Below are positions 1 through 56,428 of a stretch of 56,428 nucleotides of DNA, one piece after another. Below the pieces are notes generated by a model that saw only the letters and a list, made by a program, of their open reading frames with translations, was not told where the DNA came from and did no database searches. Positions within the stretch are counted from its first letter, which is position 1. Every line of letters begins with the position of its first letter. The position numbers were made by a program, and so were the translations under genes. The DNA comes from a virus. Where the stretch lies: IMG/VR virus record IMGVR_UViG_3300046051_000019, positions 1 to 56,428 of that record; one strand, 5' to 3'.

Positions 1-55
1 CGTCGCATCTCTATCAGTTACAAACGTATATGTGGGCGATGGATTGCCCGGGTGA
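1..55. repeat. Terminal overlap: bases 1-55 are identical to 56374-56428
   Basis: Direct comparison of both ends (cgtcgcatctctatcagttacaaacgtatatgtgggcgatggattgcccgggtga). The unique unit is 56373 bp. Confidence 0.95.
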
Positions 56-7786: not shown

Positions 7787-7936
7787 ATGGCGTATCAATG
7801 CTCGGCACCGAACTGTGACAACGACGTCATCTTGGACGAGACACCGCATTGGACACTAACAGAAACGATTACACTCGAACGGTTTTGCAGTCACGGTTGC
7901 GCGAAAACGTATCTCGAACAAGTGATCCAGACATGA
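7787..7936 (+). CDS. Small zinc-binding protein (TRASH/FCS-like Cys pattern)
   Basis: MAYQCSAPNCDN...CSHGCAKTY. The start could also be 7781. Confidence 0.5.
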   Translation: MAYQCSAPNCDNDVILDETPHWTLTETITLERFCSHGCAKTYLEQVIQT

Positions 7937-8532
7937 CGCTCATCGTGCTCGAAGGCGCGAGCCGTAGCGGCAAATCAACGATCAGAGACCGGCTCGTCGA
8001 GCGACGTCCAAAATGGGTCACGTGGAAAGGCACTAATTTGATGCGTGAAGGGATCGGTGAGAGCTGGATCGATTACCGTGAGCGTTACCACGAAGCACTA
8101 CATCGGCTCTACGAGCTCAACCCGGAAAACGTTATCCTCGCGGATCGAGGGTTCACTGATTGCGTGTACAACTCCGACGAGCAAATCCGCGAGGAGTTCC
8201 GTCGCTTAGCGGCGTGTTACGGTGACGCGTACGTCTTGTACTTCTTCCCGGGTGATCTCCGATGGTCGAACCAGCGCTTCGACGAAACCGATTCCTCGGA
8301 GCGTCACGCTCACTTGGTGCACGAGTCTGAGGGTCGCGACGTCCTCTTCGAGCGCGGTACTCGAGATCAACCGAAGCTCAACCGCGTTCTTAATGAGTAC
8401 GAAGAGCTATTGTCGATGTTCCCGTATCAGCACATCGACACTGATGAACTCGACGTCGAGACGGCGACGAACGTCGCGGAGCAAGCGATACTGGACTGGT
8501 ACGGGACGGGTGAACACGACCCGGACGTGTGA
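7933..8532 (+). CDS. P-loop (deoxy)nucleoside-monophosphate kinase, thymidylate-kinase-like
   Basis: MTLIVLEGASRSGKST Walker A and an ADRGF motif. ATGA coupling. Confidence 0.65.
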   Translation: MTLIVLEGASRSGKSTIRDRLVERRPKWVTWKGTNLMREGIGESWIDYRERYHEALHRLYELNPENVILADRGFTDCVYNSDEQIREEFRRLAACYGDAYVLYFFPGDLRWSNQRFDETDSSERHAHLVHESEGRDVLFERGTRDQPKLNRVLNEYEELLSMFPYQHIDTDELDVETATNVAEQAILDWYGTGEHDPDV

Positions 8533-9190: not shown

Positions 9191-9598
9191 ATGCCAGACG
9201 CAGACGAACTAGACGAACAGTACACCGCGGACGAGCTCCGGCGCGGCCCAGCGATCGGCGTCACAGGTCGCTGGGACATGACGAAGCAAGAACTCATCGA
9301 CGCCATCACCGAGGAGACCGGTGTCGAGCGAGTCACCGACGAAGCGTTTCAAGGCGTGCACGATGTCGAGCCTGGCGACACCGTCGAGATGAACCATCTC
9401 CAAGCCGTGCTCACCGTCACCGACGTCGAGCGAAGCGAACACCGCGTCGCGATCGAGATGGAAACGACTCACGGCGGTCGCCACAGACTCGTGTACGACG
9501 AGTTCGAGATCCCGCACCTCGAGCGCTGGCGTGCGAACGACGACAAGTGGATGAAAAACAGTACTGACCCGGAGTACTTCCGAGTCGTTCAGGACTGA
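9191..9598 (+). CDS. Hypothetical protein (possible Rho_N/SAP-like motif MTKQELIDAITEETG)
   Basis: ATG lies 8 nt after the GGAGGTCCC box. Confidence 0.6.
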   Translation: MPDADELDEQYTADELRRGPAIGVTGRWDMTKQELIDAITEETGVERVTDEAFQGVHDVEPGDTVEMNHLQAVLTVTDVERSEHRVAIEMETTHGGRHRLVYDEFEIPHLERWRANDDKWMKNSTDPEYFRVVQD

Positions 9599-10248
9599 AA
9601 CGCAATTTCTTTCGCGTCACCGAGCTGCTCTCGATAAATATGAGCGGACGTCATGACGTGCTCGTGGCGACCGATCTCAGCATCGATCTCCTCTGCGAGC
9701 TCGTGGTGGTAATGACCGAATACCCCGACGTCCATCGGGTACGCGAACATCAAGTCCTGTGACCTGTTATACGTGAAGCAATGTAAGTACGTCCCGTTCC
9801 CGTTCTCGTCCGCGCGGATCATCCACTGCACGCGGCTCGTGCACGGCGAGTCCGGGGCACCGCCGAATTGGCTCGTCGCTTTCCGGGTACCGTGGTCACG
9901 GGTTAAGAGCTCGATCCATTTCTCCCAATCCGCGCTAATTCGTTTCCTGATGACGTCTTCGTAGAACGTCCCGTCGTCGAGATCCAGTCTCGTGTCGAGC
10001 TCACTCGATGCTGTGAACTCGGGTTCCTCGCCGCTCCGCACGGTTTCTATTTCGCTCCATAAGTAGTCGTGTCGTGGGTCGTCTTCGCTCCAGACGACGT
10101 ATTCATCCGGGGTGTGCGCGGTGACGCAGTAGTTCTGTAGTTCGAGCGTCTCGAAGCCCCGGGTCTCGACGCGTTGTCCGTGTTGGATAACTGATCGAAG
10201 CACTGATGGGTAGGAGTCGGCGACGTTCGCGACGTATAGTTCGTGCAC
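9589..10248 (-). CDS. Thymidylate-synthase (ThyA) family pyrimidine C5 transferase, paralogue 1. Asp at the base-specificity position suggests a dCMP substrate.
   Basis: SPCTSRVQWMI carries the catalytic Cys. YNRSQDLMFAYPMDV aligns with YQRSxDxxLGxPFNI, with N replaced by D. The GTG start lies 27 nt after AAACTTAAT. Confidence 0.7.
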   Translation of the reverse strand: MHELYVANVADSYPSVLRSVIQHGQRVETRGFETLELQNYCVTAHTPDEYVVWSEDDPRHDYLWSEIETVRSGEEPEFTASSELDTRLDLDDGTFYEDVIRKRISADWEKWIELLTRDHGTRKATSQFGGAPDSPCTSRVQWMIRADENGNGTYLHCFTYNRSQDLMFAYPMDVGVFGHYHHELAEEIDAEIGRHEHVMTSAHIYREQLGDAKEIAFQS

Positions 10249-10327
10249 GGTTCGTGGTAAGGAACGAGTAACATTAAGTTTTTCTCTTACAGTTACATTT
10301 ATCAATACTCGGTGTTTAACACCGTAC
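10249..10327. promoter_or_regulatory. Divergent promoter region with two outward TATA boxes
   Basis: Minus strand reads TGTAAGAGAAAAACTTAAT and plus strand ACATTTATCAAT. Each lies about 27 nt from its start codon (10248 and 10328). Confidence 0.5.
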
Positions 10328-10945
10328 ATGAGGTCCGTATGGCAGAACTTTCAAGACGGCGTGTCTCACTGCTCGGAGTGCCCCGGGCAAGAAGCACCGT
10401 ACCCACTTGGCGGTATCGGTAACCATGGCGCCGACGTGATGCTCGTCGGGCAAGAACCAGCGTACAACGTCGACGACGACACGGTTACCACGGAGATGAA
10501 CTGGCTCGACGCAGTAGCTACGATGATACAGAACCGTCGTGACTCCATGAACCCGCTCTGGAAACACATGATGAACGTCGCTGTCGCGGCGGAGTGCTCG
10601 CCAACCGATCTCTACTTCACGAATATCAGCAAATGTTCAACAGACAATACATCGTTTAGCGACTGCCTCGAACATTGCAGAGGGTACTTCCCACGCGAAG
10701 TCGCACAGGTCGATCCAGACGTCATGCTACTATACGGTGGGAAAGTCATCAGTACGGTGTTCGACATGTTCGACATCGAGTGGAGCGGGTCAGTTGGTGA
10801 CGTGCACGGCGAGATCCATGAAACGTCGAGCCTGAAACTCGCCGCGTTCTACCACTGGGGCTACATTTATAGACAGGGGGATCTAACGTCTTACCGCGAA
10901 GAGGTGACCAACGTTGTCCAAGACACTGTATCAGCGGAGAACTGA
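10328..10945 (+). CDS. Uracil-DNA glycosylase superfamily protein (family 4/5-like)
   Basis: N-terminal CSEC, motif MLVGQEPAYN in place of GEAPG/GLAPA, then YFTNISKC and HWGY. Confidence 0.6.
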   Translation: MRSVWQNFQDGVSHCSECPGQEAPYPLGGIGNHGADVMLVGQEPAYNVDDDTVTTEMNWLDAVATMIQNRRDSMNPLWKHMMNVAVAAECSPTDLYFTNISKCSTDNTSFSDCLEHCRGYFPREVAQVDPDVMLLYGGKVISTVFDMFDIEWSGSVGDVHGEIHETSSLKLAAFYHWGYIYRQGDLTSYREEVTNVVQDTVSAEN

Positions 10946-10948
10946 TCA

Positions 10949-12193
10949 ATGAGCATCCTCGAAACCGATCTCGCGGACGTTACCCCTGGGGGTCACGCGG
11001 CTCAAGCACTGCTCCACAAGTACGGTCTCGGCGCGCTCTTCGCCGCTAATGTATTAGGTGCCGGGTCAATATACATCTTATCGCAGACCGGCGCCTCAGT
11101 CGGGTTCACGTTGCTCTGGGTGCTACCGCTCGCGTTCGCTGTGGACATGGTGATGCACGACATGTCGTCGCGACTCGCGGTTAGGGATCGACCCCTAATG
11201 GAGTACATCAGTGACGCGCTCCACGAGCTCACTGGGAGTACACGGATCGGCGTCGCGTATGCCATACTGATGGCGCTCGTCATGCAACTCTGGGCCGTGG
11301 CGAACTACGCCGTAGCCGGCGCCGCGTTCTCGTGGTTCACAGGTGTCAACGTGTACGTCGCGATCCTCGCCGCGTCAAGCATCGGTGTCGTGCTCGTGAT
11401 GACGCGCACGTACAACTATATCGAAGCGGTTATCAGTGCGTTGCTCGTAACCGTGTTCGTTTCCTACGCCGCGTTGTCATTCGGGTTAGACGTCAACACG
11501 GCTGATCTCGTCAGTGGGTTCGTGCCCGGCGACGTGTCGAGCGCGACACTCGTCATCGCGATGCTCGGCACCACGATTTACTATCCGAACTTTTTTATCC
11601 AGAGCTCGATGCAACCGACAAAGGAATGGACGTCACTGAGAAAGTATCGTCGCGACAACGCGGTAGGTATCGCGTTCGCGATACTGATCTCAGTCGGGAT
11701 GCTCGTCGTCGCAGCTGTCGCGCTCGAGCCCGGTGAGCTATCCCTCACAGATCCAGCGATACCGCTCGTCGACTCCGTTGGCGCGTGGACGCTTCCCGTG
11801 TTCATGGCAGCTGTGCTCGCCGCGTCGTTCACATCAGCCACTGGGACGCTATTCGGTTCGTCGTTCGCGGTGCCTCAATCGCTCGGGAAGAAAACGATCT
11901 TTGGCGACACTGTGTTCACCGTGGTCACCGTCGTGCTGATCGGTGTCAGCTCGGTGCTATCCATCTTGGCGCTCGAGTTCACGGAGATGACACCGGTCCG
12001 GATGGCTATCACGATGCCAGCGTTGAACGGCGCGATCTTTCTCCCAGTGACGATCTTAGCGATGTACAACGCGACGGCGTACGAGATGGACGCGTGGCAA
12101 AAAACCGTCTCGGCGATCGCTGTCGTCGTCATGTTCGCGGGATCGATCCTCACAGCCGAGTCGCTGTTCGACACAGTGGTGAGCTTCCTATGA
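10949..12193 (+). CDS. NRAMP-family-like integral membrane transporter with non-canonical substrate-site residues
   Basis: About 11 hydrophobic segments. GLGALFAANVLGAGSIYILSQTGASVGFTLLWVL aligns with NRAMP TM1, with GAGS in place of DPGN. TM6 has YYPN in place of MPHN. Confidence 0.65.
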   Translation: MSILETDLADVTPGGHAAQALLHKYGLGALFAANVLGAGSIYILSQTGASVGFTLLWVLPLAFAVDMVMHDMSSRLAVRDRPLMEYISDALHELTGSTRIGVAYAILMALVMQLWAVANYAVAGAAFSWFTGVNVYVAILAASSIGVVLVMTRTYNYIEAVISALLVTVFVSYAALSFGLDVNTADLVSGFVPGDVSSATLVIAMLGTTIYYPNFFIQSSMQPTKEWTSLRKYRRDNAVGIAFAILISVGMLVVAAVALEPGELSLTDPAIPLVDSVGAWTLPVFMAAVLAASFTSATGTLFGSSFAVPQSLGKKTIFGDTVFTVVTVVLIGVSSVLSILALEFTEMTPVRMAITMPALNGAIFLPVTILAMYNATAYEMDAWQKTVSAIAVVVMFAGSILTAESLFDTVVSFL

Positions 12194-12513
12194 CTGACCC
12201 GTATATCCGACAGGTACAAGAAGCCACGCACGCGTGGCGTATGGAGAAATGGCCAGATCTCACGCCGCTCGCGCAACTCGCTGGCACCGACGTCGAGGTA
12301 TCGGAGCTCCTCGAGATGGAGGTGAAGAGCGAGTATTACGACGACGACTGGGCGAGCGAGGAACGATTCAAGGAAGAGATCGGAGACGTCATTATTTACT
12401 TGATGGGGTACTCGTCACTCCGTGGGTTCGACGTCGACGAGTGCGTCGAAGCGGCGCTCGATAAGAACGAGGACCGAGACTGGGAGGAACACATGGAAGC
12501 ACCTGAGCGATGA
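12190..12513 (+). CDS. MazG-like all-alpha NTP pyrophosphohydrolase
   Basis: EVSELLEME...EEIGDVIIYLMGY...ALDKNEDRDW. ATGA coupling to the transporter gene. Confidence 0.7.
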   Translation: MTDPYIRQVQEATHAWRMEKWPDLTPLAQLAGTDVEVSELLEMEVKSEYYDDDWASEERFKEEIGDVIIYLMGYSSLRGFDVDECVEAALDKNEDRDWEEHMEAPER

Positions 12514-12650
12514 CTCGGTGTCCAATCGGTGGTTGTGACAATGCGGTGGAGCCCGGGCCGAATTGTTACGTCGAAGTCGAGCTCAGTAGTGAATCCGTGA
12601 AGAAACTGGTCTGTGAAGACTGCGCGGAGACGTTCAAGGACCATGTTACT
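12510..12650 (+). CDS. Small zinc-ribbon protein (46 aa)
   Basis: MTRCPIGGCDN...CEDCAETF. ATGA coupling. Below the ORF-track length cutoff. Confidence 0.5.
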
Positions 12651-13116
12651 AAGTGACGTATCGATCCGGGAGCGAATCAGTGAAGATATCGTCGTTACGC
12701 CTGAACCGGTAGAGGAACAGTTCCAACCGGCGTCGTTCGACGTCAGGCTCGGAGAGCAACTCTACCACGCGGCGACGGACACGACGAGTGTCGACGGGAA
12801 TAGCCACGTACTCGAGCCACGGGAAGCGTACATCGGGCACACGATGGATTACGTCGAGTTACCGCTCGACGTAGCTGCGCAGTTGACTGGCCGGAGTAGT
12901 ATCGGTCGTCAAGGCGTCATTATCCATAAAACCGCTGGGTGGATAGATCCCGGTTTCCGCGGCGAGATCACGCTCGAGCTCTATAATTTCAGTGAAGACC
13001 CCGTTGTTCTCGACGTCGGTAGCCGCGTCGGTCAACTAGTGTTCTTCCAACTCGACCAAGAGAGCACGGGGTACGATGGACAATTTCAAGATCAACTGGG
13101 CCCGACGGCACGGTGA
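12643..13116 (+). CDS. dcd: dCTP deaminase / dUTPase family protein
   Basis: GRSSIGRQG and AGWIDPGFRGEITLELYN signatures. Confidence 0.8.
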   Translation: MLLSDVSIRERISEDIVVTPEPVEEQFQPASFDVRLGEQLYHAATDTTSVDGNSHVLEPREAYIGHTMDYVELPLDVAAQLTGRSSIGRQGVIIHKTAGWIDPGFRGEITLELYNFSEDPVVLDVGSRVGQLVFFQLDQESTGYDGQFQDQLGPTAR

Positions 13117-13197: not shown

Positions 13198-13413
13198 ATG
13201 GACGACATCGCACCAGCGGAGAAAACCAAGGAGTACAGTCAAGCGAAGACGTACGTCGTCACCGAAGCCGAGACCGAAGCAGATGCTCGACGCAGTGCGG
13301 AGACGCAATATCGCGACGAGATCGAGCACCAATTCCTCATCAAGGACTTACAGGCCTTCGTTCGAACGCACCCAAAGGGCTACGAGGTCGCGGTCGTCGC
13401 GAGACTACAGTGA
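13198..13413 (+). CDS. Hypothetical protein
   Basis: 71-aa ORF located after the promoter box. Confidence 0.55.
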   Translation: MDDIAPAEKTKEYSQAKTYVVTEAETEADARRSAETQYRDEIEHQFLIKDLQAFVRTHPKGYEVAVVARLQ

Positions 13414-15218
13414 TGTTCGAATACGATATCGTCGAGAACGAGTACGGGCCACAACTCGCCGTGTCGTTCCAATACGACGAACGAACAATCGAACAGATCA
13501 AGTCACTGAGCTGGGAGACGACGCATCGAGCATGGTCAGAGGACCACGACGCGTGGCTCATCGATTACACCGAGCAGTCGCTCGAAGAATTCCAAGACCA
13601 AATGAACGTCGTTATCCCGCCGCGATACACGCCCAGCGAGGACCACAGCGGCGTGGTTCATGCAGTGGTTCCAGACGAATACGCGTGGTTCTTCCTTCAA
13701 GACCCGTCGAGCGAGATCGATGATTTACTCTGGCAAGAGCTCGCGTACTGGAACGACGCGTACAAGGAACACCAACAACAATGGATTCGACTCTACGATA
13801 CAGATACCCATGGCGCACCGATCGGTCTCCTCGACAAGACACGGAAGCTCGTCGAGGCGAGTGGCTACGAGTTCACAGTTACGTGGAACGGTGACCGAAA
13901 GGGCGGCGCGGTCCAGCTCGACTGGGAGTTCCCCTCGGAGCTCCGCGGATACCAACGAGACGCGATCAACGCCGTGAAAGCGAATGACGGAGGTATCATC
14001 GCGTTACCAACCGGGACCGGGAAAACCGTCACGGCGATGAAACTCCTCGAGGAAGTGTCGCTCGAGATGGGGCGAGGTATCGTTCTCGTGCACACACAAG
14101 AACTGCTTTATCAATGGGAGAGTGAGATCCGCGATGCGCTACGCGTGGAGCCCGGCGTGATTGGCGATGGGAACTGGAGCGAGGGCCCAGTTACGATCGC
14201 GGTGATGCAGACGTTGATGAGCCGTGGCGTGGACGAGCTCGACGAGTCGTATGGCGTCGCGGTGTTTGACGAGTGTCACAGGACATCAGCGGCGGACACG
14301 ATGCACGACATCGGGATGGATTTAAACGTCGCGATGCGTGTCGGGCTCAGCGCGACGCCGTGGCGTCGGATCGAGGGCGAGGAACTCATGATCGAGGGCG
14401 CGGTTGGCGGCGAGGCGCACACCGTTACCGCCGAGGAAATGATCGACGCCGGGTATCTCTCAGAACCGCGATTCGACGTCATCGACCCTCGAGACTACGG
14501 GCGTGTCGACACCGCTAATACCGGTGAAGCGTATCACGACGCGTACCGTCGCTGTATCAGTCTCACCGCGACGAGGAACCGCGCGATCGCGGCGAAAACC
14601 GCGGAGCTCGCCAACCTAGGGTACCAAGTGTTGGTTAACGTGGATCGTATCAAGCACGGGCGTCTCCTCGAGTACGCATTGAACCGAGACGTCGATCACG
14701 ACGACGTCATTGACGCCGTTGACTTCGACGACGCGCAATCGAGGCGCGAGTTCATCAGCGCGTTGCAAGCGACGAGTCGAGTCGCTGATACGAACGCCGA
14801 GTTCATGCACGGCGCTGATACCACTAAGATCCGTCAGGATACACTCGACGAGTTCCAAAACGGTGACCTCGATATCCTCGTCTCGACGCTATTGAGGGAG
14901 GGCGTCGATATCCCGAACATTAGCGCTATCGTTCTCGCGCAAGCAGGGAAAAGCGACGTCAAGCAAATCCAGGTCATCGGGCGAGCGCTACGACCGAAGA
15001 ACGGCGACCACGCTCGCATCGTGGACGTGAACGATACTGGTCGATACTTTCGCAGTCAATTCGAGAAGCGCATAACCGCGATGCGGGAATACTATGGAGA
15101 GTATGGACCGTCTTTGAGTGACTTCGATGTCGAGCCGACATCGGATGATGGACCACCCGAGTCGCGGAGCTTAACTGACGAGCCACCGGAGTCGTTCGAG
15201 GACCTCTATGATAACTGA
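13413..15218 (+). CDS. Superfamily 2 DNA helicase (Rad25/XPB- or type III res-like)
   Basis: ALPTGTGKT, VFDECHR, GLSATPWR and QVIGRALR motifs. TGATG coupling. Confidence 0.85.
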   Translation: MFEYDIVENEYGPQLAVSFQYDERTIEQIKSLSWETTHRAWSEDHDAWLIDYTEQSLEEFQDQMNVVIPPRYTPSEDHSGVVHAVVPDEYAWFFLQDPSSEIDDLLWQELAYWNDAYKEHQQQWIRLYDTDTHGAPIGLLDKTRKLVEASGYEFTVTWNGDRKGGAVQLDWEFPSELRGYQRDAINAVKANDGGIIALPTGTGKTVTAMKLLEEVSLEMGRGIVLVHTQELLYQWESEIRDALRVEPGVIGDGNWSEGPVTIAVMQTLMSRGVDELDESYGVAVFDECHRTSAADTMHDIGMDLNVAMRVGLSATPWRRIEGEELMIEGAVGGEAHTVTAEEMIDAGYLSEPRFDVIDPRDYGRVDTANTGEAYHDAYRRCISLTATRNRAIAAKTAELANLGYQVLVNVDRIKHGRLLEYALNRDVDHDDVIDAVDFDDAQSRREFISALQATSRVADTNAEFMHGADTTKIRQDTLDEFQNGDLDILVSTLLREGVDIPNISAIVLAQAGKSDVKQIQVIGRALRPKNGDHARIVDVNDTGRYFRSQFEKRITAMREYYGEYGPSLSDFDVEPTSDDGPPESRSLTDEPPESFEDLYDN

Positions 15219-15260: not shown

Positions 15261-15334
15261 TGCGAGGTAGGACAGCTAGGCTACTCCGCACGGCTCATGC
15301 CCGTGAAACCGATGGTTCGAGTCCATCCCTCGCA
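15261..15334 (+). tRNA. tRNA with CAT anticodon (Met, or Ile if C34 is modified)
   Basis: Hand-folded cloverleaf. Acceptor stem TGCGAGG/CCTCGCA. U8 is present and the D loop has GG. Anticodon stem CACGG/CCGTG with loop CTCATGC. T arm GATGG-TTCGAGT-CCATC. Confidence 0.85.
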
Positions 15335-15339
15335 ACTGC

Positions 15340-15447: not shown

Positions 15448-15548
15448 AGCGAAAACAGCTCGCCGTCTCGGAAGGGACACATCCAGTGACCGCGTACCGT
15501 CGTGCGGACCTGGAGGACTCGCGGGCACACGACGGGCTCCGGCGCACT

Positions 15549-15613
15549 CGGCAAGGGAACCGGTTACTTCGCATCTAGCGCGAGTGACTCGCGTTCGAAT
15601 CGCGACTTGTCGT
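15549..15613 (+). ncRNA. D-arm-less tRNA-like module B with a 7-nt loop AUCUAGC
   Basis: Acceptor stem CGGCAAG/CTTGTCG. Long stem pairs 15563-72 with 15580-88. T arm TCGCG-TTCGAAT-CGCGA. Confidence 0.4.
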
Positions 15614-15942: not shown

Positions 15943-17478
15943 ATGGACTTGAACTCGTCTAAAACAGAAGCGCGGAACCTCGCTGGTGGCCATCGCCACG
16001 AGATCAATGACCCACTGGAAGCGCTTCGAATGGTCATGATTACCAACTTACTCGAGGACACGTACTACGAGGACGACTCCGAGTCGCTCGAGAAACTCGT
16101 CGAGCGCTTTCAAGCAGCTGCGAACGTGGATCCCGAGTTCCCGTTGCGACTCGCCGCGTGGGCGCGACGAGACGCATACGTTCGAGACGTCCCGCAAGTA
16201 TTACTCGTGCTCAGCGCGCGCCACGACGACGCGAAGCACTACGTTCGACGATACGCGAGCCACGTGATCGATCGAGCCGACGAGCTCTGCACGACGCTCG
16301 CGTTTAACAACACAGTGGCTGGTGACGGCCCGGGTGACTTCTCCGCGACGATTCCATGGGTCTTGAAACGAGCCATTGCTGATGTGATCGAGGACGCGTC
16401 GTTCGACGCGTACCAGTACGCGAAGTACCGACAAGGGCACCGAGCGGTCTCGATGCACGACGTGTTCAACCAAGTGCACCCATATGGGTACGAGGACAGT
16501 CCAGAACCCGTCGAGGGACAATCCGAGATCGCGAATAGGATAACCAAGGGAGGGAAGGACGCGTATCCAGACGTACAGTCTCTCAGCCAGAGACGTACGT
16601 GGGAAGACACCATCAGTGAAGCGGGGCAAGACGGCGACGTCACGGCTGATGACTGGCGCCGCGTGCTCGACGACATGGGGTTATTCGCCCGAGTCCGGAA
16701 CTTACGGAACATGCTCGAAGCTGGGCTGACTGGTGAAGAAATCCTCGAGGACGCGAGCGACGAGTGGATCCGGAACAGTCAACTATACCCGTTCAGGTTT
16801 TACCAAGCACGGAAAGCACTCAAGGGCGCTAGTGAGATGGATCGCTACGTGCACGAGTGGCTTGAGAACGCGGTGAACGTCGCGTGTGAAACCGTGCCAG
16901 ACGAGCTCGTACACACAGCGACGCTCGTGGACCTGTCGGGCTCGATGCAACAACGGGTGTCGAACCGGAGCGACCTTAGTCGCGTCGAGATCGCGGCGTT
17001 GTTCGGCGCGATGCTCGGTCAGAGACGCTCGGATGTCATCGGGTTCGCCGATACAGCGACTCGTGTCCCCGTTGACCCGCTCGAGAACAGTGTGCTCTCG
17101 TTGCAAGAAGCGATCGTGTCCACGGATGTCGGGAGTAGCACGTTCGCTCACAAGGCGCTCGAGTTCATCGCGGACGAGTCTACTGATGGAGAAGTCGTTC
17201 CTGATAGAGTCGTGGTGTTCACTGATTTCCAGATCTGGGAGAGACAGCGGTACGGTAACGACCCGAACGCGTTCCGTGGTGCGTGGGAGATGCTTCGCGA
17301 GATGCACTCCGAGGAACCGTATTTGTACATCGTGGACTTGGCGAGTTACGGCGAGATCAAGCTCCCAGAGAACTACCCGGGCGTCACGAGACTGCAGGGA
17401 TGGAACGACGGCGTGTTGGATTACATCTGGCACGCCGAGAACAGTTTACTAGACGACATTCAAGCGTATGACCCATGA
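15943..17478 (+). CDS. Ro60/Rsr-like TROVE-domain protein with C-terminal vWA domain
   Basis: N-terminus has NLAGGHRHEINDPLEALRMV..TYYED..DPEFPLRLAAWARRDAYVRD, which is TROVE-like. The vWA MIDAS is DLSGSM. Confidence 0.7.
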   Translation: MDLNSSKTEARNLAGGHRHEINDPLEALRMVMITNLLEDTYYEDDSESLEKLVERFQAAANVDPEFPLRLAAWARRDAYVRDVPQVLLVLSARHDDAKHYVRRYASHVIDRADELCTTLAFNNTVAGDGPGDFSATIPWVLKRAIADVIEDASFDAYQYAKYRQGHRAVSMHDVFNQVHPYGYEDSPEPVEGQSEIANRITKGGKDAYPDVQSLSQRRTWEDTISEAGQDGDVTADDWRRVLDDMGLFARVRNLRNMLEAGLTGEEILEDASDEWIRNSQLYPFRFYQARKALKGASEMDRYVHEWLENAVNVACETVPDELVHTATLVDLSGSMQQRVSNRSDLSRVEIAALFGAMLGQRRSDVIGFADTATRVPVDPLENSVLSLQEAIVSTDVGSSTFAHKALEFIADESTDGEVVPDRVVVFTDFQIWERQRYGNDPNAFRGAWEMLREMHSEEPYLYIVDLASYGEIKLPENYPGVTRLQGWNDGVLDYIWHAENSLLDDIQAYDP

Positions 17479-23361: not shown

Positions 23362-23943
23362 GTGTGCTGGATGACTGCGCGGCGCGGTGACTCCCCGCTC
23401 GCCTCGGGGCTCGACGCGTGCCAACGACACGAGGACGCGAGCGGCGGGCACTCCTGGGGCTACGCGATCAGTGATGGCGAGAAACTCGAGACGTTCACAC
23501 AAGTCGGGACCATCGACACGTTCGCGACGAGCCCCGAGGCCGAGGTCGCGCTCGTACACACGCGACTCGCGACTCGCGGCGAGATCACGGAGGAGAACGC
23601 GCACCCGTTCTTGATTCACTGGCACGAACCCGGGGGTGCGTCGCGCACAGCGGCGCTCGCGCACAACGGCACGTGGCACGACGCTCCACACGATGGCCGT
23701 GCGGACTCGTGGCACATGGCCCGTGAACTCGAAGCACGCCTCGAGGACGACGCCGAGCTCCGCGACGCAGTCGAGTCGCTTGGCGCGCTCACGAGTGAAA
23801 CGTTTATCGTCGTCACTGATATGGCCCGGGCGCTCGTGTACTCGGGGCGCTTCACGGTCACCACTGATGACGTCGAGTCCCCGCGAGTCGTGCAGTCGAG
23901 CGAGCTCGACGAGATCCCGACTGGCTCGACCCTCGAGCTCTAA
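23362..23943 (+). CDS. Class II (Ntn-type) glutamine amidotransferase
   Basis: The GTG start is followed by Cys2, the Ntn nucleophile. HTRLATRGEITEENAHPF motif. Confidence 0.7.
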   Translation: MCWMTARRGDSPLASGLDACQRHEDASGGHSWGYAISDGEKLETFTQVGTIDTFATSPEAEVALVHTRLATRGEITEENAHPFLIHWHEPGGASRTAALAHNGTWHDAPHDGRADSWHMARELEARLEDDAELRDAVESLGALTSETFIVVTDMARALVYSGRFTVTTDDVESPRVVQSSELDEIPTGSTLEL

Positions 23944-49713: not shown

Positions 49714-50095
49714 CTTAGTAACAGCACTCTTAACGCTCATCTCGGTGGGCGTCATGGTCGTCGGAGCGGCACTCGGGTATGTCATCGGGCAACTCGACCA
49801 GTTAAAGAAAGATGACATTGAACCGATGAAGAGTAAGATCGACACGGTGTGGAACACAGTGTTCGGCGTGGAGAGCCAAGAAGGTTTTTTGAACGAAGCG
49901 GAGGACAGTCACGAGAAGATCCGGGAGACGATCGAGGAGACTCGGAGGGAACAGAACGAGGCTCACGATGAACTCGTCGATGGGTTCATCGAGGTCGAGC
50001 GATATCTACGCGAGTTGAATCGAGCGCTGCGTCGTCAAGACATCGAGGTCCCTGACGAGGAAATCGATAACGACGAGTTGCTCAAAGACGATTAG
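49706..50095 (+). CDS. Membrane-anchored coiled-coil protein
   Basis: N-terminal TM segment LVTALLTLISVGVMVVGAALGYVIG followed by an acidic helical region. Confidence 0.5.
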   Translation: MASLVTALLTLISVGVMVVGAALGYVIGQLDQLKKDDIEPMKSKIDTVWNTVFGVESQEGFLNEAEDSHEKIRETIEETRREQNEAHDELVDGFIEVERYLRELNRALRRQDIEVPDEEIDNDELLKDD

Positions 50096-51018
50096 ACCTG
50101 GTCTTTGAACGCGGTGAACGCGATGTCGTTCGCTATATCTATAGCTGTTTCTTCGTTGTCGTGGAATCGGCGTTGTTCGTACGCGGTCATGTAGCGAAGC
50201 CAATCCGCGTAGAACGCTTCGTACGCGTGGAGCGCGTCGATCTCGCTCCACGGGACGAGCCCGTCGCGAGCCCGTGCTAACCCGTGTGTGAGGTAGAACA
50301 TCACGGCGTCGAGCTCGTCGCGTGGGAGCCTGATATCTGGGAGCGAAACCGGGTCCATGTCCCTCGCGGCGTCGAGCACCATTGGTTCTCGCTCGACGTA
50401 GTAGTGACAATTATTCATGTAGTGCGTGTACGAACCGAGCTCGACGCCGAGGATCCCGGCGAGTACTTCTTGGAGCCACTGGAAGTTATGCACGTCGTAC
50501 GGGTATCCCCAGTACATGTCTTGTGACCGCATCGACGTGAACGCGTGGAGGGAGTCGTCTCGGATCACGAGTTGCATTGTGAGCGTGCACGCGACGTCTG
50601 GTCCGTCGTAGTTCTCGACGTGAGGTTGGTGGAACGCGATAACGGCTCGACGAGTCGTCTGGTTGTCGACGAGTTGTTGGACGACGCGATCGATTTGGTC
50701 GTGCGGGACGCGCCTGAGGTAGCGGCCGTACGCTGAGCCCTTGAGTTCCCCGTCTGTCATGAATTGGGTCATCGTGGAGTTGTATCGCTCGACGTGCCCA
50801 GGGTTTTGCCCCGCCCAGTACGCGATTGCTTCTTGGAGTTGGAACGCGAGGTTGTAGTTCTCCCTGAAGAATAATCGTTCACGCGGGTCTTGTGATTGTA
50901 TCGCGACGCCGAGGCGTTCACGCGTGTCACCGTTCCGCGAGTGCTGAGCGTCTTTTTCGCTCAGCGTCTTGACGATCACTGGGAACGCGTTGGACGTGGT
51001 GCACTCGAACACGTGCAT
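50092..51018 (-). CDS. Thymidylate-synthase (ThyA) family pyrimidine C5 transferase, paralogue 2. Asp at the base-specificity position.
   Basis: RRAVIAFHQP, DVACTLTMQLVI (catalytic Cys), MRSQDMYWGYPYDV (N replaced by D) and NNCHYY. The ATG is leaderless, 27 nt after CGTTTTTAAC. Confidence 0.75.
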   Translation of the reverse strand: MHVFECTTSNAFPVIVKTLSEKDAQHSRNGDTRERLGVAIQSQDPRERLFFRENYNLAFQLQEAIAYWAGQNPGHVERYNSTMTQFMTDGELKGSAYGRYLRRVPHDQIDRVVQQLVDNQTTRRAVIAFHQPHVENYDGPDVACTLTMQLVIRDDSLHAFTSMRSQDMYWGYPYDVHNFQWLQEVLAGILGVELGSYTHYMNNCHYYVEREPMVLDAARDMDPVSLPDIRLPRDELDAVMFYLTHGLARARDGLVPWSEIDALHAYEAFYADWLRYMTAYEQRRFHDNEETAIDIANDIAFTAFKDQV

Positions 51019-55886: not shown

Positions 55887-56428
55887 ATGAGCGACTTGAT
55901 CGACAGGTGGTTGGAATCGAAATATACTGGCGGTGAACCCGACGGCGCTCGATTCCGCGACGAGCGCGGGGAGTATCACGCGAGCAATATCAGTAACTGT
56001 CCACGCCGGTGGTACTGGGATTTCGAACGCGAATCAGAGGACTCGTGGAGCCCGTACTTCGAGCTCGGTCGCGTCTTTGAGGACGTGTACGGGCGAGCGC
56101 TGCGCTGGGAGCACGGCGACGACAGAGTGAAGCAAGACGTGAACATCGAGATACGCATCGACGACGATACTCGTATCGTTGGCGAGTCGGATTGGACGGT
56201 GTTCAAGGACGGTGCTCGATACGAGATAGACAAAGTCACGTTGCGTCGAGACGGTACGCGAGACGCAGTTACCCGAGCGGGTGACGTCGTGGAGTACGGG
56301 TGCGACGTTTTGAAAGTCGTGGAGACGAAGACCACGAAAGACATCGATTGGCGGCGCCGGTATGGGCATAAACCGTCGCATCTCTATCAGTTACAAACGT
56401 ATATGTGGGCGATGGATTGCCCGGGTGA
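55887..56428 (+). CDS. Cas4/RecB-like PD-(D/E)XK nuclease, N-terminal part (continues at 3..272)
   Basis: N-terminal Cys (ISNCPRRWYW), GESDW, VVETKT and HLYQLQTYM motifs. The frame is open to the window end and identical to bases 1-55. Confidence 0.75.
   Translation, partial: MSDLIDRWLESKYTGGEPDGARFRDERGEYHASNISNCPRRWYWDFERESEDSWSPYFELGRVFEDVYGRALRWEHGDDRVKQDVNIEIRIDDDTRIVGESDWTVFKDGARYEIDKVTLRRDGTRDAVTRAGDVVEYGCDVLKVVETKTTKDIDWRRRYGHKPSHLYQLQTYMWAMDCPG

What the first reader, a model, noticed from the sequence alone, without database searches (positions are those of the whole stretch)
10949..12193. NRAMP-like membrane transporter with degenerate metal-binding residues, translationally coupled inside the nucleotide-metabolism operon
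Seen in the sequence:
- A 414-aa polytopic protein whose TM1 region aligns well with NRAMP (G.G.L.A...G.GSI...Q.GA..GF.LLWVL).
- It has GAGS instead of the metal-coordinating DPGN.
- It has YYPN instead of MPHN in TM6.
- Its start lies 4 nt after the stop of the UDG-like gene.
- Its stop overlaps the MazG-like start (ATGA).

Established knowledge: the DPGN and MPHN residues bind Mn/Fe in canonical NRAMPs, and family members lacking them transport other substrates.

Inference: a virus-encoded importer is rare in archaeal viruses. Its operon context suggests uptake of a precursor or cofactor for nucleotide or DNA modification chemistry rather than iron or manganese.
Basis: partly seen in the sequence, partly recalled or inferred. 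Interest (0 to 1): 0.65.

Follow-up and report, generated by a model that had tools for sequence, protein, structure and literature searches.

The report
Virus-encoded Nramp-related transporter, non-metal-type site
A haloarchaeal tailed virus carries a host-derived membrane transporter of the Nramp superfamily whose pocket lacks every residue that known relatives use to bind metals; related viruses keep it among their DNA-precursor genes, but its cargo is unknown.

Summary
ORF 10949-12193 (+) encodes 414 aa. It matches Pfam Nramp (106.8 bits, cut-off 29.8) and models confidently as an 11-helix Nramp/LeuT fold. GAGS replaces DPGN and TTIYYPN replaces ATIMPHN. The gene is packed between a UDG-like and a MazG-like gene.

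"Degenerate" is wrong. These residues are invariant in 85 homologues and dN/dS is about 0.2. They define an archaeal PF01566 branch with signature GxxS/TxxY and Pro at the TM10 Gln. This branch is neither Slc11/MntH (DxxN/AxxM) nor NRMT (DxxG/TxxA), and it has no conserved acidic residue in the core helices.

The window is a complete, circularly closed tailed-virus genome. The gene keeps the same position (kinase-like, ThyA-like, UDG-like, transporter, MazG, DCD, helicase) on six viral contigs. A second virus lineage places it after preQ0 (7-deazaguanine) genes and a purine-type phosphoribosyltransferase. About 70 cellular loci show no nucleotide genes nearby.

No Nramp-family gene turned up in INPHARED, PHROGs or BFVD.

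Best reading: a functional, host-derived, ion-coupled importer used as an auxiliary gene. Its cargo is probably a small organic solute rather than Mn/Fe, but this is unproven.

The parts
10949..12193 (+). Nramp-related (PF01566) transporter gene, 414 aa, 11 predicted TM helices
11057..11068 (+). TM1 unwound-region motif G37-A38-G39-S40, at the position of DPGN (Slc11) and DAGG (EleNRMT)
11570..11590 (+). TM6 unwound-region motif T208-T209-I-Y211-Y212-P213-N214, at the position of A-T-I-M-P-H-N of ScaDMT
12014..12028 (+). TM10 motif M356-P357-A-L-N360. Invariant Pro357 occupies the position of the metal-ligand Gln (EleNRMT Q379; AQxxN in other clades)
   Evidence: role of the Gln from PMC8806188
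10936..10951 (+). Junction with the upstream gene: GGAG, TGA stop of the UDG-like gene (10943-10945), TCA, ATG (10949-10951)
12190..12193 (+). ATGA overlap between the transporter stop and the MazG-like start
10328..10945 (+). UDG-superfamily gene. It lies upstream of the transporter, directly or after two small ORFs, on all six lineage-1 viral contigs
12190..12513 (+). MazG-like NTP pyrophosphohydrolase gene. It is found downstream of the transporter on all six lineage-1 contigs
12613..13116 (+). dCTP deaminase/dUTPase-like gene
9589..10329 (-). Divergent ThyA-family gene, part of the conserved module
7849..8532 (+). P-loop kinase-like gene (weak AAA_33 match), conserved in the module
13410..15218 (+). 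ResIII/DEAD helicase gene that closes the conserved module

Best explanation
The gene encodes a working secondary carrier with the LeuT/Nramp fold (11 TM helices, unwound TM1 and TM6). A haloarchaeal tailed-virus lineage captured it from Halobacteria and keeps it as an auxiliary gene.

It sits in the same tightly spaced + strand gene string as the dNTP-supply genes (UDG-like, MazG, dCTP deaminase, helicase). I infer that it is co-expressed with them and inserted into the host membrane, where it raises uptake of one small solute while viral DNA is being made.

It belongs to an archaeal branch of PF01566 with pocket signature GxxS (TM1) / TxxY (TM6) / Pro (TM10). This branch has lost all ligands and proton-relay residues that Slc11 and NRMT carriers use for Mn2+, Fe2+ or Mg2+. 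I therefore judge the cargo more likely to be an uncharged or zwitterionic small organic molecule than a bare divalent metal. A nitrogen heterocycle is one candidate, meaning a lactam, a nucleobase or a similar ring. Transport would be driven by the Na+ or H+ gradient.

Shown: family, fold, motif conservation, purifying selection, viral location, conserved synteny, host origin.
Inferred: co-expression, import direction, coupling ion, class of cargo.
For: Family and fold:
- PF01566, 106.8 bits.
- AF2 model pLDDT 89.9. Foldseek gives DraNramp and EleNRMT at TM about 0.8, against about 0.6 for APC, AdiC and Mhp1.

Functional constraint:
- 51 invariant columns in 85 homologues, including the TM1, TM6 and TM10 motifs.
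- dN/dS is 0.12-0.30 against five viral orthologues and 0.22 against one cellular orthologue.

Virus:
- The window encodes terminase, portal, an HK97-type capsid protein and a tape measure.
- Its ends share an exact 55-nt overlap, which indicates a closed genome.

Synteny:
- The order kinase-like, ThyA-like, UDG-like, transporter, MazG, DCD, helicase is kept on six contigs at 60-97% transporter identity.
- Second lineage, L065: FolE, QueC, QueD, QueE, a helix-hairpin-helix (HhH) domain protein, then the transporter.
- Second lineage, L067: two QueC-like genes, QueD, ThyX, dCMP deaminase, a QueE-like gene, a purine-type PRTase, an HhH protein, then the transporter.

Host origin:
- 54 GTDB loci, all Halobacteria, at 44-50% identity.
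- The clade holding the lineage-1 viral copies also contains one cellular copy, with bootstrap 92.

Against a metal site:
- D to G37, N to S40, M to Y211, the TM6b histidines to P213 and Q218, and the TM10 Gln to P357.
- The TM3 Asp and Glu align to non-acidic residues under either alignment. There is no conserved D/E in the TM1, TM3, TM6, TM8 or TM10 cores.
- The TM1 Asp is common to Mn and Mg carriers, and mutating the TM10 Gln has a strong effect on EleNRMT transport (PMC8806188).

Precedent for organic cargo in Asp-less PF01566 proteins:
- PxpT/YcsG is required for 5-oxoproline use (PMC13274462).
- IGPGT-type genes of Haloferax volcanii and Haloarcula marismortui lie in CopG, transporter, hydantoinase/oxoprolinase A, B operons.
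Against: - No substrate evidence of any kind exists for this clade.
- B. subtilis YcsG, from the sister orphan clade, was reported as a Mn2+ importer (PMC10448178), so loss of the canonical ligands may not exclude metals. I did not read YcsG's own motif; the Asp-less state was seen in haloarchaeal IGPGT genes.
- The pocket keeps many oxygen donors (Ser, Thr, Tyr, Asn, Gln) that could hold a hydrated ion.
- Cellular homologues sit beside TauE/SafE, Usp and an unknown membrane-anchored protein. They are not beside catabolic or nucleotide genes, so context gives no organic-cargo clue for this clade itself.
- One virus-like contig (L069) has the gene without recognisable nucleotide genes.
- Expression during infection is untested.
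Confidence: 0.5

Rival explanations
1. It is what databases call it: a divalent-metal importer (Mn2+, Mg2+, Fe2+ or another cation) with an unusual site. It would supply cofactor for the neighbouring metal-dependent enzymes, such as MazG, dCTP deaminase, polymerase, PrimPol and Fe-S or Zn enzymes of the Que pathway.
For: - Every experimentally solved relative found here carries metal ions, and the closest is the Mg2+/Mn2+ carrier EleNRMT at 24% identity.
- YcsG of the PF01566 orphan clade raised cellular Mn when over-expressed (PMC10448178).
- T208 matches the Mg-relevant Thr224 of EleNRMT.
- The neighbouring viral enzymes need metals. That rests on established knowledge of those families and is not shown here.
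Against: - All four ligand positions (TM1 Asp and Asn, TM6 Met, TM10 Gln) and the TM3/TM6b proton relay are replaced by invariant non-equivalent residues.
- No acidic residue remains in the core helices.
- Scores fall below the NCBIfam cut-offs: MntH 47.7 against 430, and Nramp_1 42.3 against 50.
- Mg2+ is plentiful in brines (general knowledge).
Confidence: 0.27
2. It works outwards or as a leak. Either it exports a base or by-product released by the adjacent DNA-glycosylase-like or nucleotide-cleaning enzymes, or it alters membrane potential or ion balance to block superinfection or time lysis.
For: - In both viral lineages the gene upstream of the transporter, directly or after two small ORFs, is a DNA-base-handling or DNA-binding protein. 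It is UDG-like in lineage 1 and a helix-hairpin-helix protein in lineage 2.
- EleNRMT transport is not coupled to H+ (PMC8806188), so family members need not be concentrative importers.
Against: - The pocket residues are identical in viral and cellular copies, which argues that the ordinary cellular function is retained.
- The characterised family members read here (MntH/DMT carriers, NRMTs, NRAT, PxpT/YcsG) are described as uptake systems.
- No evidence for efflux was found.
Confidence: 0.1
3. It is a passenger: a host gene recently picked up with no role in infection.
For: Closest relatives are cellular genes of likely hosts, and one cellular copy nests in the viral clade.
Against: - The gene is kept at the same position across viral genomes whose transporters are only 60-70% identical and whose synonymous sites are saturated (dS above 1), with dN/dS of 0.12-0.30.
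- It is present in a second viral lineage.
- Its GC and GC3 match the window.
Confidence: 0.03

Closest known systems
NRMT, Nramp-related Mg2+ transporters (EleNRMT, PDB 7QIA; CabNRMT)
   Same: - Best sequence and structure match among solved proteins: profile E=7e-23 over the full length, TM 0.80-0.83, 24% identity.
- 11 TM helices.
- GTT at the start of the TM6 unwound region, including the Thr that replaces Ala.
- No TM6b histidines.
   Different: NRMT keeps the TM1 Asp (DxxG), the TM3 Glu and the TM10 Gln. Here these positions are Gly37, a non-acidic residue and Pro357. Tyr211 sits where NRMT has Ala or Thr.
Slc11/NRAMP proper (MntH, DMT1; DraNramp, ScaDMT)
   Same: Same Pfam family and same fold (TM 0.7-0.83). 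The TM1 flank (Q.GA..G[FY].LLWVL) and Asn214 (= N of MPHN) are conserved.
   Different: The DxxN and A/CxxM ligands, the TM6b histidines, the TM3 Asp and Glu, and the TM10 Gln are all absent. The score is far below the MntH model cut-off.
PF01566 'orphan outgroup' (YcsG/MntG of B. subtilis, PxpT of C. glutamicum; haloarchaeal IGPGT genes next to hydantoinase/oxoprolinase)
   Same: - No Asp in TM1.
- G-x-G-[ST] in place of DPGN.
- GTT...N in TM6.
- The YcsG model 9a52 matches at TM 0.74.
- Its function is disputed between 5-oxoproline and Mn2+.
   Different: - About 28% identity on average.
- The orphan clade has GPGT, VVPYN and keeps AQxxN in TM10. This clade has GAGS, Y[YW]PN and MPAxN.
- No oxoprolinase gene lies directly beside the transporter in the loci whose gene calls were inspected; this was not screened across all cellular loci.
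Virus-encoded transporters used as auxiliary genes (for example the queuosine-precursor transporter reported in Haloquadratum viruses, PMC12418951; LeuT-fold permeases of SIRV11, iridoviruses and Marseillevirus in BFVD)
   Same: A host-type membrane transporter carried in a virus genome. The halovirus precedent concerns precursors of queuosine/archaeosine, a modified 7-deazaguanine nucleoside.
   Different: The protein family is different. No Nramp-family member was found among viral proteins in PHROGs, INPHARED or BFVD.

Membership tests
Pfam PF01566 (Nramp superfamily in the broad sense) | Whole-protein HMM score above the gathering threshold | tested here: met
   106.8 bits against 29.8, residues 45-373 on profile positions 5-341 of 357
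Pfam PF01566 (Nramp superfamily in the broad sense) | LeuT-type fold with 11-12 TM helices and unwound TM1 and TM6 | tested here: met
   AF2 pLDDT 89.9, helix breaks at residues 36-37 and 210-212, Foldseek TM 0.78-0.83 to DraNramp and EleNRMT
Slc11/NRAMP proper (MntH/DMT) | DxxN motif in unwound TM1 | tested here: not met
   G37-A-G-S40, invariant or nearly so in 85 homologues
Slc11/NRAMP proper (MntH/DMT) | A/CxxM motif in unwound TM6 and the two TM6b histidines | tested here: not met
   T208-x-x-Y211. The histidine positions are P213 and Q218
Slc11/NRAMP proper (MntH/DMT) | Score above the curated MntH / Nramp_1 model cut-offs | tested here: not met
   NF001923 47.7 against 430; NF037982 42.3 against 50
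NRMT (Nramp-related Mg2+ transporters) | DxxG in TM1, with the Asp retained | tested here: not met
   EleNRMT D55-A-G-G58 aligns with G37-A-G-S40. Signature taken from PMC8806188
NRMT (Nramp-related Mg2+ transporters) | TxxA/T in TM6 | tested here: inconclusive
   The Thr is present (T208), but the A/T position holds Tyr211, and HMMER needs a one-residue gap here
NRMT (Nramp-related Mg2+ transporters) | TM10 Gln (Q379) needed for transport | tested here: not met
   Invariant Pro357 at that column
NRMT (Nramp-related Mg2+ transporters) | Neighbouring MgtE-N-domain gene or M-box riboswitch | not tested
   None was seen among the Pfam-annotated neighbours. No Rfam scan was run
PF01566 orphan outgroup (YcsG/PxpT type) | GPGT in TM1, TTVVPYN in TM6, AQxxN in TM10 | tested here: not met
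   It shares only the Asp-less G-x-G-[ST] form. TM6 and TM10 differ
PF01566 orphan outgroup (YcsG/PxpT type) | Operon with 5-oxoprolinase or hydantoinase genes | tested here: not met
   Absent from the viral loci and from the cellular loci whose gene calls were inspected. One cellular contig has hydantoinase A/B 2.5 kb away on the other strand, and a second contig carrying the identical transporter protein lacks them there. It was not screened across all cellular loci
Virus auxiliary (host-derived) gene | Lies inside a bona fide virus genome | tested here: met
   Terminase, portal, capsid, tape measure, PolB; 55-nt end overlap
Virus auxiliary (host-derived) gene | Closest relatives are cellular genes of the host group, and the viral copy is under purifying selection | tested here: met
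Virus auxiliary (host-derived) gene | Expressed during infection and changes host physiology | not testable with these tools
   Needs transcriptomics or proteomics of infected cells

The most novel reading that the evidence does not exclude
The carrier imports a nitrogen-heterocycle precursor that the virus channels into its own DNA. Candidates are a purine or pyrimidine base or a related ring compound. The virus would use it through salvage (lineage 2 has a purine-type phosphoribosyltransferase two genes upstream) or through base-modification chemistry (two ThyA paralogues and a kinase-like gene in this genome; preQ0 genes in lineage 2). That would make it the first Nramp-fold transporter with a nucleobase-like cargo, and a virus-encoded supply line for modified DNA.
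Probability: 0.15. Interest if true: 0.8.

Novelty: new variant of a known kind. Interest (0 to 1): 0.55.

Why it matters
1. It marks out an uncharacterised archaeal branch of the Nramp superfamily. Its pocket (GxxS/TxxY/Pro) matches none of the three signatures with known cargo, and genome annotation labels it "Mn2+/Fe2+ transporter" almost certainly without basis.

2. Two halovirus lineages keep this carrier among their DNA-precursor genes, which means some transported solute limits virus DNA production in brines. Identifying it would show what haloviruses are starved of.

3. Together with the oxoprolinase-linked sister clade, it offers a test of how a metal-ion carrier fold and an organic-solute carrier fold interconvert.

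Tried and rejected
- blastn and tblastn of the locus and protein against INPHARED phages found nothing. PolB finds only about 23%-identical relatives, so no isolate genome could be used for annotation transfer.
- IMG/VR scans with the transporter and with the UDG-like gene returned only one contig, a 94-97% identical relative. Presence or absence across the viral lineage could therefore not be measured there.
- The JGI metagenome scan added 13 loci, all of cellular type.
- My own ORF-calling and neighbour clustering on high-GC cellular loci produced many spurious Arg/Pro-rich ORFs. I replaced it with tblastn of named neighbours.
- Literature searches for Nramp with haloarchaeal virus, Nramp with auxiliary metabolic gene, and PF01566 with queuosine gave no papers.
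- The 'Zallot 2019' citation that looked like a lead to a queuosine link is only the EFI tool paper.
- I considered placing the protein in NRMT because EleNRMT is the best PDB hit. I rejected this because the Asp, Gln and TM3 Glu are missing.
- I considered it a pseudo-transporter. I rejected this on conservation and dN/dS.
- Pfam on the conserved 414-aa cellular neighbour and on several viral neighbours gave nothing.
Full report
**1. What is in the sequence**

ORF 10949..12193 (+) starts with ATG and encodes 414 aa. The preceding UDG-like ORF (10328..10945) ends in TGA at 10943-10945. Three bases later comes the ATG, and a GGAG lies at 10936-10939. The stop codon overlaps the start of the MazG-like ORF as ATGA at 12190-12193.

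**2. Family and fold**

- Pfam gives a single hit, PF01566 Nramp, E=1.7e-30, 106.8 bits against a gathering score of 29.8.
- The curated NCBI models are not reached: MntH 47.7 against 430, and Nramp_1 42.3 against 50.
- phmmer against PDB sequences finds only ScaDMT. The ungapped alignment puts AGS on PGN and TTIYYPN on ATIMPHN.
- A profile of 16 homologues finds EleNRMT (7QIA) best, E=7e-23 over the full length, then DraNramp.
- An AlphaFold2 model built on 85 homologues has pLDDT 89.9 and pTM 0.88. It has 11 long helices, with breaks at residues 36-37 and 210-212, which is where TM1 and TM6 unwind in this fold.
- Foldseek ranks DraNramp and EleNRMT first (TM 0.78-0.83, 18-24% identity). A B. 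subtilis YcsG model scores 0.74. APC, AdiC and Mhp1 carriers score only about 0.6.

**3. The altered residues are conserved, not decayed**

A search of 5.8 billion proteins returned 143 hits. Metagenomic sequences are 52-79% identical. Chromosomal genes of Natrinema, Haloterrigena, Halopiger, Natronococcus, Halalkalicoccus, Halococcus, Haloarcula and Haladaptatus are about 45-50% identical, and all are annotated as NRAMP or iron/manganese transporters.

In 85 aligned sequences, G37, G39, S40, T208, T209, Y211, P213, N214, Q218, S220, M356, P357 and N360 are invariant, and A38 nearly so.

A full HMMER scan of 1.84 billion cluster representatives shows a narrow family. Only 20 representatives score below 1e-30, and scores drop steeply from 611 to about 120 bits. 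The motif table across the next 120 representatives separates the clades:

| Clade | TM1 | TM6 | TM10 |
|---|---|---|---|
| This clade | [FL]GAGS | GTT.Y[YW]PNF[FW]IQ.S | [MF]PA.N |
| Small intermediate group | FGSG[ST] | GTT.LWPNFFL | not tabulated |
| Large, mostly bacterial clade | IGPGT | GTTVVPYNLFLH | AQ..N |
| NRMT-type | GNDAGG | GTTI[AT]P[WY] | AQ..N in EleNRMT |

One representative with the full GAGS/YYPN signature comes from Aenigmatarchaeota and Heimdallarchaeia MAGs. The clade is therefore archaeal, not only haloarchaeal.

**4. Comparison with known signatures**

Ramanadane et al. define DxxN-A/CxxM for classical NRAMPs, DxxN-AxxT for NRAT and DxxG-TxxA/T for NRMT. They state that the TM1 Asp is common to Mn and Mg carriers, and that mutating the TM10 Gln has a strong effect on EleNRMT transport (PMC8806188).

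Here the signature is GxxS-TxxY, with Pro at the Gln position. The TM6b histidines correspond to P213 and Q218. The TM3 Asp and Glu of DraNramp and EleNRMT align to non-acidic residues under both HMMER and MAFFT. Across 85 sequences, TM6 contains no D/E at all, and no D/E is conserved in the cores of TM1, TM3, TM8 or TM10. The only conserved acidic residues are E159, D236 and D320, which lie outside those core segments; in the secondary-structure map E159 is near the start of the fifth helix, and D236 and D320 lie at or next to inter-helix loops.

Cellier's work divides PF01566 into Slc11, NRMT and an "orphan" outgroup that lacks the Slc11 ligands (PMC9606685, PMC10606218). Shin et al. regard that outgroup as a link to carriers of non-metal substrates (PMC4072509). 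The clade studied here is a further Asp-less branch, roughly equidistant from the orphan and NRMT groups.

**5. It is a virus gene, and a conserved one**

The window encodes PolB, an ERCC4 nuclease, terminase, portal, an HK97-like capsid protein, a tape measure and PrimPol. Its first 55 nt repeat exactly at its end, which is the mark of a closed assembly of about 56.37 kb.

Lineage 1. Contigs of 69 kb, 72 kb, 25.6 kb, 8.7 kb and the 55.5-kb IMG/VR contig carry the transporter at 60-97% identity in the same order: kinase-like, ThyA-like, UDG-like, transporter, MazG, DCD, helicase. dN/dS against these copies is 0.12-0.30.

Lineage 2. This lineage has lower GC (0.47-0.48), and the 89-kb contig encodes a 1997-aa tape measure (the 17.8-kb contig is a fragment). 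It carries a 52-53% identical copy at the end of a block.
- On the 89-kb contig the block holds FolE, QueC, QueD, QueE and a helix-hairpin-helix protein.
- On the 17.8-kb contig it holds two QueC-like genes, QueD, ThyX, dCMP deaminase, a QueE-like gene, a phosphoribosyltransferase and a helix-hairpin-helix protein. The phosphoribosyltransferase is closest to xanthine and hypoxanthine-guanine enzymes but below their cut-offs.

A ninth virus-like contig has the gene among unknown small ORFs.

Rarity. No hit was found in 50,697 phage/archaeal-virus records and no PHROG family matched. BFVD holds only distant LeuT-fold permeases. Three literature searches found no report.

**6. Origin**

All 54 loci found in one-genome-per-species GTDB contigs are Halobacteria. 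In a neighbour-joining tree, the clade containing all lineage-1 viral copies has bootstrap 92. It also contains one cellular copy on a 486-kb, 67% GC contig, flanked by asparagine synthase on one side and EF-1alpha and S10 on the other. Lineage 2 falls elsewhere with weak support. Capture from a host is clear. The number of captures and the direction of transfer for the nested cellular copy are not resolved.

**7. Cellular context gives no cargo clue**

A tblastn screen of all fetched loci with named neighbour proteins gave the following.
- In the first screen, which covered about 64 cellular loci plus six viral or virus-like ones, a TauE/SafE-family membrane protein lay nearby in 27 loci, immediately downstream on the same strand in all but one. 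A universal stress protein was present in 27, and an unknown 414-aa membrane-anchored protein in 33. The JGI metagenome loci screened afterwards mostly show the same cluster.
- These three neighbours appear in different arrangements in Natrialbales, Haloarcula, Halococcus and Haladaptatus.
- gyrB and gyrA lie 2-4 kb upstream in Natrialbales only.
- AstE-like plus PLP-enzyme genes lie upstream only in Halalkalicoccus.
- None of about 70 cellular loci has ThyA, UDG, DCD, MazG or Que markers.

**8. What Asp-less PF01566 relatives do**

C. glutamicum PxpT (50% identical to YcsG) is required for growth on 5-oxoproline (PMC13274462). B. subtilis YcsG was instead reported as a third Mn2+ importer, MntG (PMC10448178).

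I found that IGPGT-type genes on Haloferax volcanii pHV4 and Haloarcula marismortui pNG700 sit in CopG, transporter, hydantoinase/oxoprolinase A, B operons with abutting or overlapping gene ends. This is a second, non-homologous oxoprolinase type. That supports an organic lactam cargo for the sister clade. It shows that loss of the Asp goes with organic-substrate contexts, but it says nothing direct about the GAGS clade.

**9. Mechanism**

Shown:
- an intact, selected LeuT/Nramp-fold carrier of host origin;
- embedded in a tightly spaced + strand gene string of a virus replication and nucleotide module;
- kept in two viral lineages.

Inferred:
- co-expression early in infection and insertion into the host membrane;
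- import driven by Na+ or H+;
- cargo class.

I favour a small neutral or zwitterionic organic solute (confidence about 0.5) over a metal ion (about 0.27). My reasons are that every metal and proton residue is replaced by invariant non-equivalents, aromatic Tyr-Tyr/Trp sits in the unwound TM6, and Asp-less relatives associate with lactam metabolism. An efflux or membrane-perturbing role (about 0.1) and a passenger gene (about 0.03) are less likely.

I give a nucleobase-like cargo about 0.15. A halovirus-encoded queuosine-precursor transporter of another family is a published precedent (PMC12418951).

**10. Verdict**

This is a new variant of a known kind: a virus-borne member of an uncharacterised archaeal Nramp-superfamily branch with a novel pocket signature. 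Interest is moderate (0.55). The gene is real, conserved and unreported in viruses, but its cargo, and therefore its significance, cannot be settled by computation.

Noticed in passing
window 1-55 and 56374-56428: The first 55 nt are identical to the last 55 nt. This is an assembler-type overlap, so the window is a circularly closed (or terminally redundant) complete genome of about 56.37 kb.
   Followed up: partly
window 50092-51018 (-) and 9589-10329 (-): The genome has two ThyA-family genes. The second matches PF00303 at 5.9e-19. Both score far below the NCBIfam thymidylate-synthase cut-offs. With the kinase-like gene at 7849-8532, this could point to pyrimidine hydroxymethylation or hypermodification rather than plain dTMP synthesis.
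   Followed up: no
window 15261-15336, 15540-15613, 15943-17478: tRNA-Met and a tRNA with a CUA (amber-reading) anticodon lie next to a TROVE/Ro60-like plus VWA gene. TAG ends 14 of 57 long ORFs, so a suppressor tRNA would cause read-through.
   Followed up: no
window 10328-10945: The UDG-like protein has GQEPAY where family-4 UDGs have GE[AG]PG. It scores 40.8 against a cut-off of 250 for archaeal type-4 UDG. It shares invariant EPAYN, NPLW.HM, FTN..KC and HWG motifs with four viral orthologues. It may not be a uracil glycosylase.
   Followed up: partly
window 10327-10330: The predicted ThyA-like (-) and UDG-like (+) start codons overlap back to back (CATG), which leaves no intergenic promoter space. 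One start is probably mis-set, or the promoters lie inside the coding sequence. In L002 the same gene pair is 73 nt apart.
   Followed up: no
L084 5247-10819 (H. volcanii pHV4) and L086 3768-9323 (H. marismortui pNG700): There is a conserved operon: CopG-family regulator, IGPGT-type 'Nramp family' transporter, hydantoinase/oxoprolinase A and B. The database label 'divalent metal transporter' is probably wrong for this haloarchaeal clade too.
   Followed up: partly
L006 9470-12396 and many other cellular loci: Cellular GAGS-clade genes are accompanied by a TauE/SafE-family membrane protein, a universal stress protein and an unknown 414-aa membrane-anchored protein with no Pfam match. This holds in roughly half of the loci, in varying arrangements.
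   Followed up: partly
window 23362-23943: A small ORF shows a weak class-II glutamine amidotransferase match (PF13230, 1.6e-05) in a region of otherwise unannotated genes.
   Followed up: no
L065 1-6442 and L067 1-7199: The second halovirus lineage (GC 0.47-0.48) carries a preQ0 pathway. L065 has FolE, QueC, QueD and QueE. L067 has two QueC-like genes, QueD, a QueE-like gene, ThyX, dCMP deaminase and a purine-type PRTase. This predicts 7-deazaguanine-modified DNA.
   Followed up: partly
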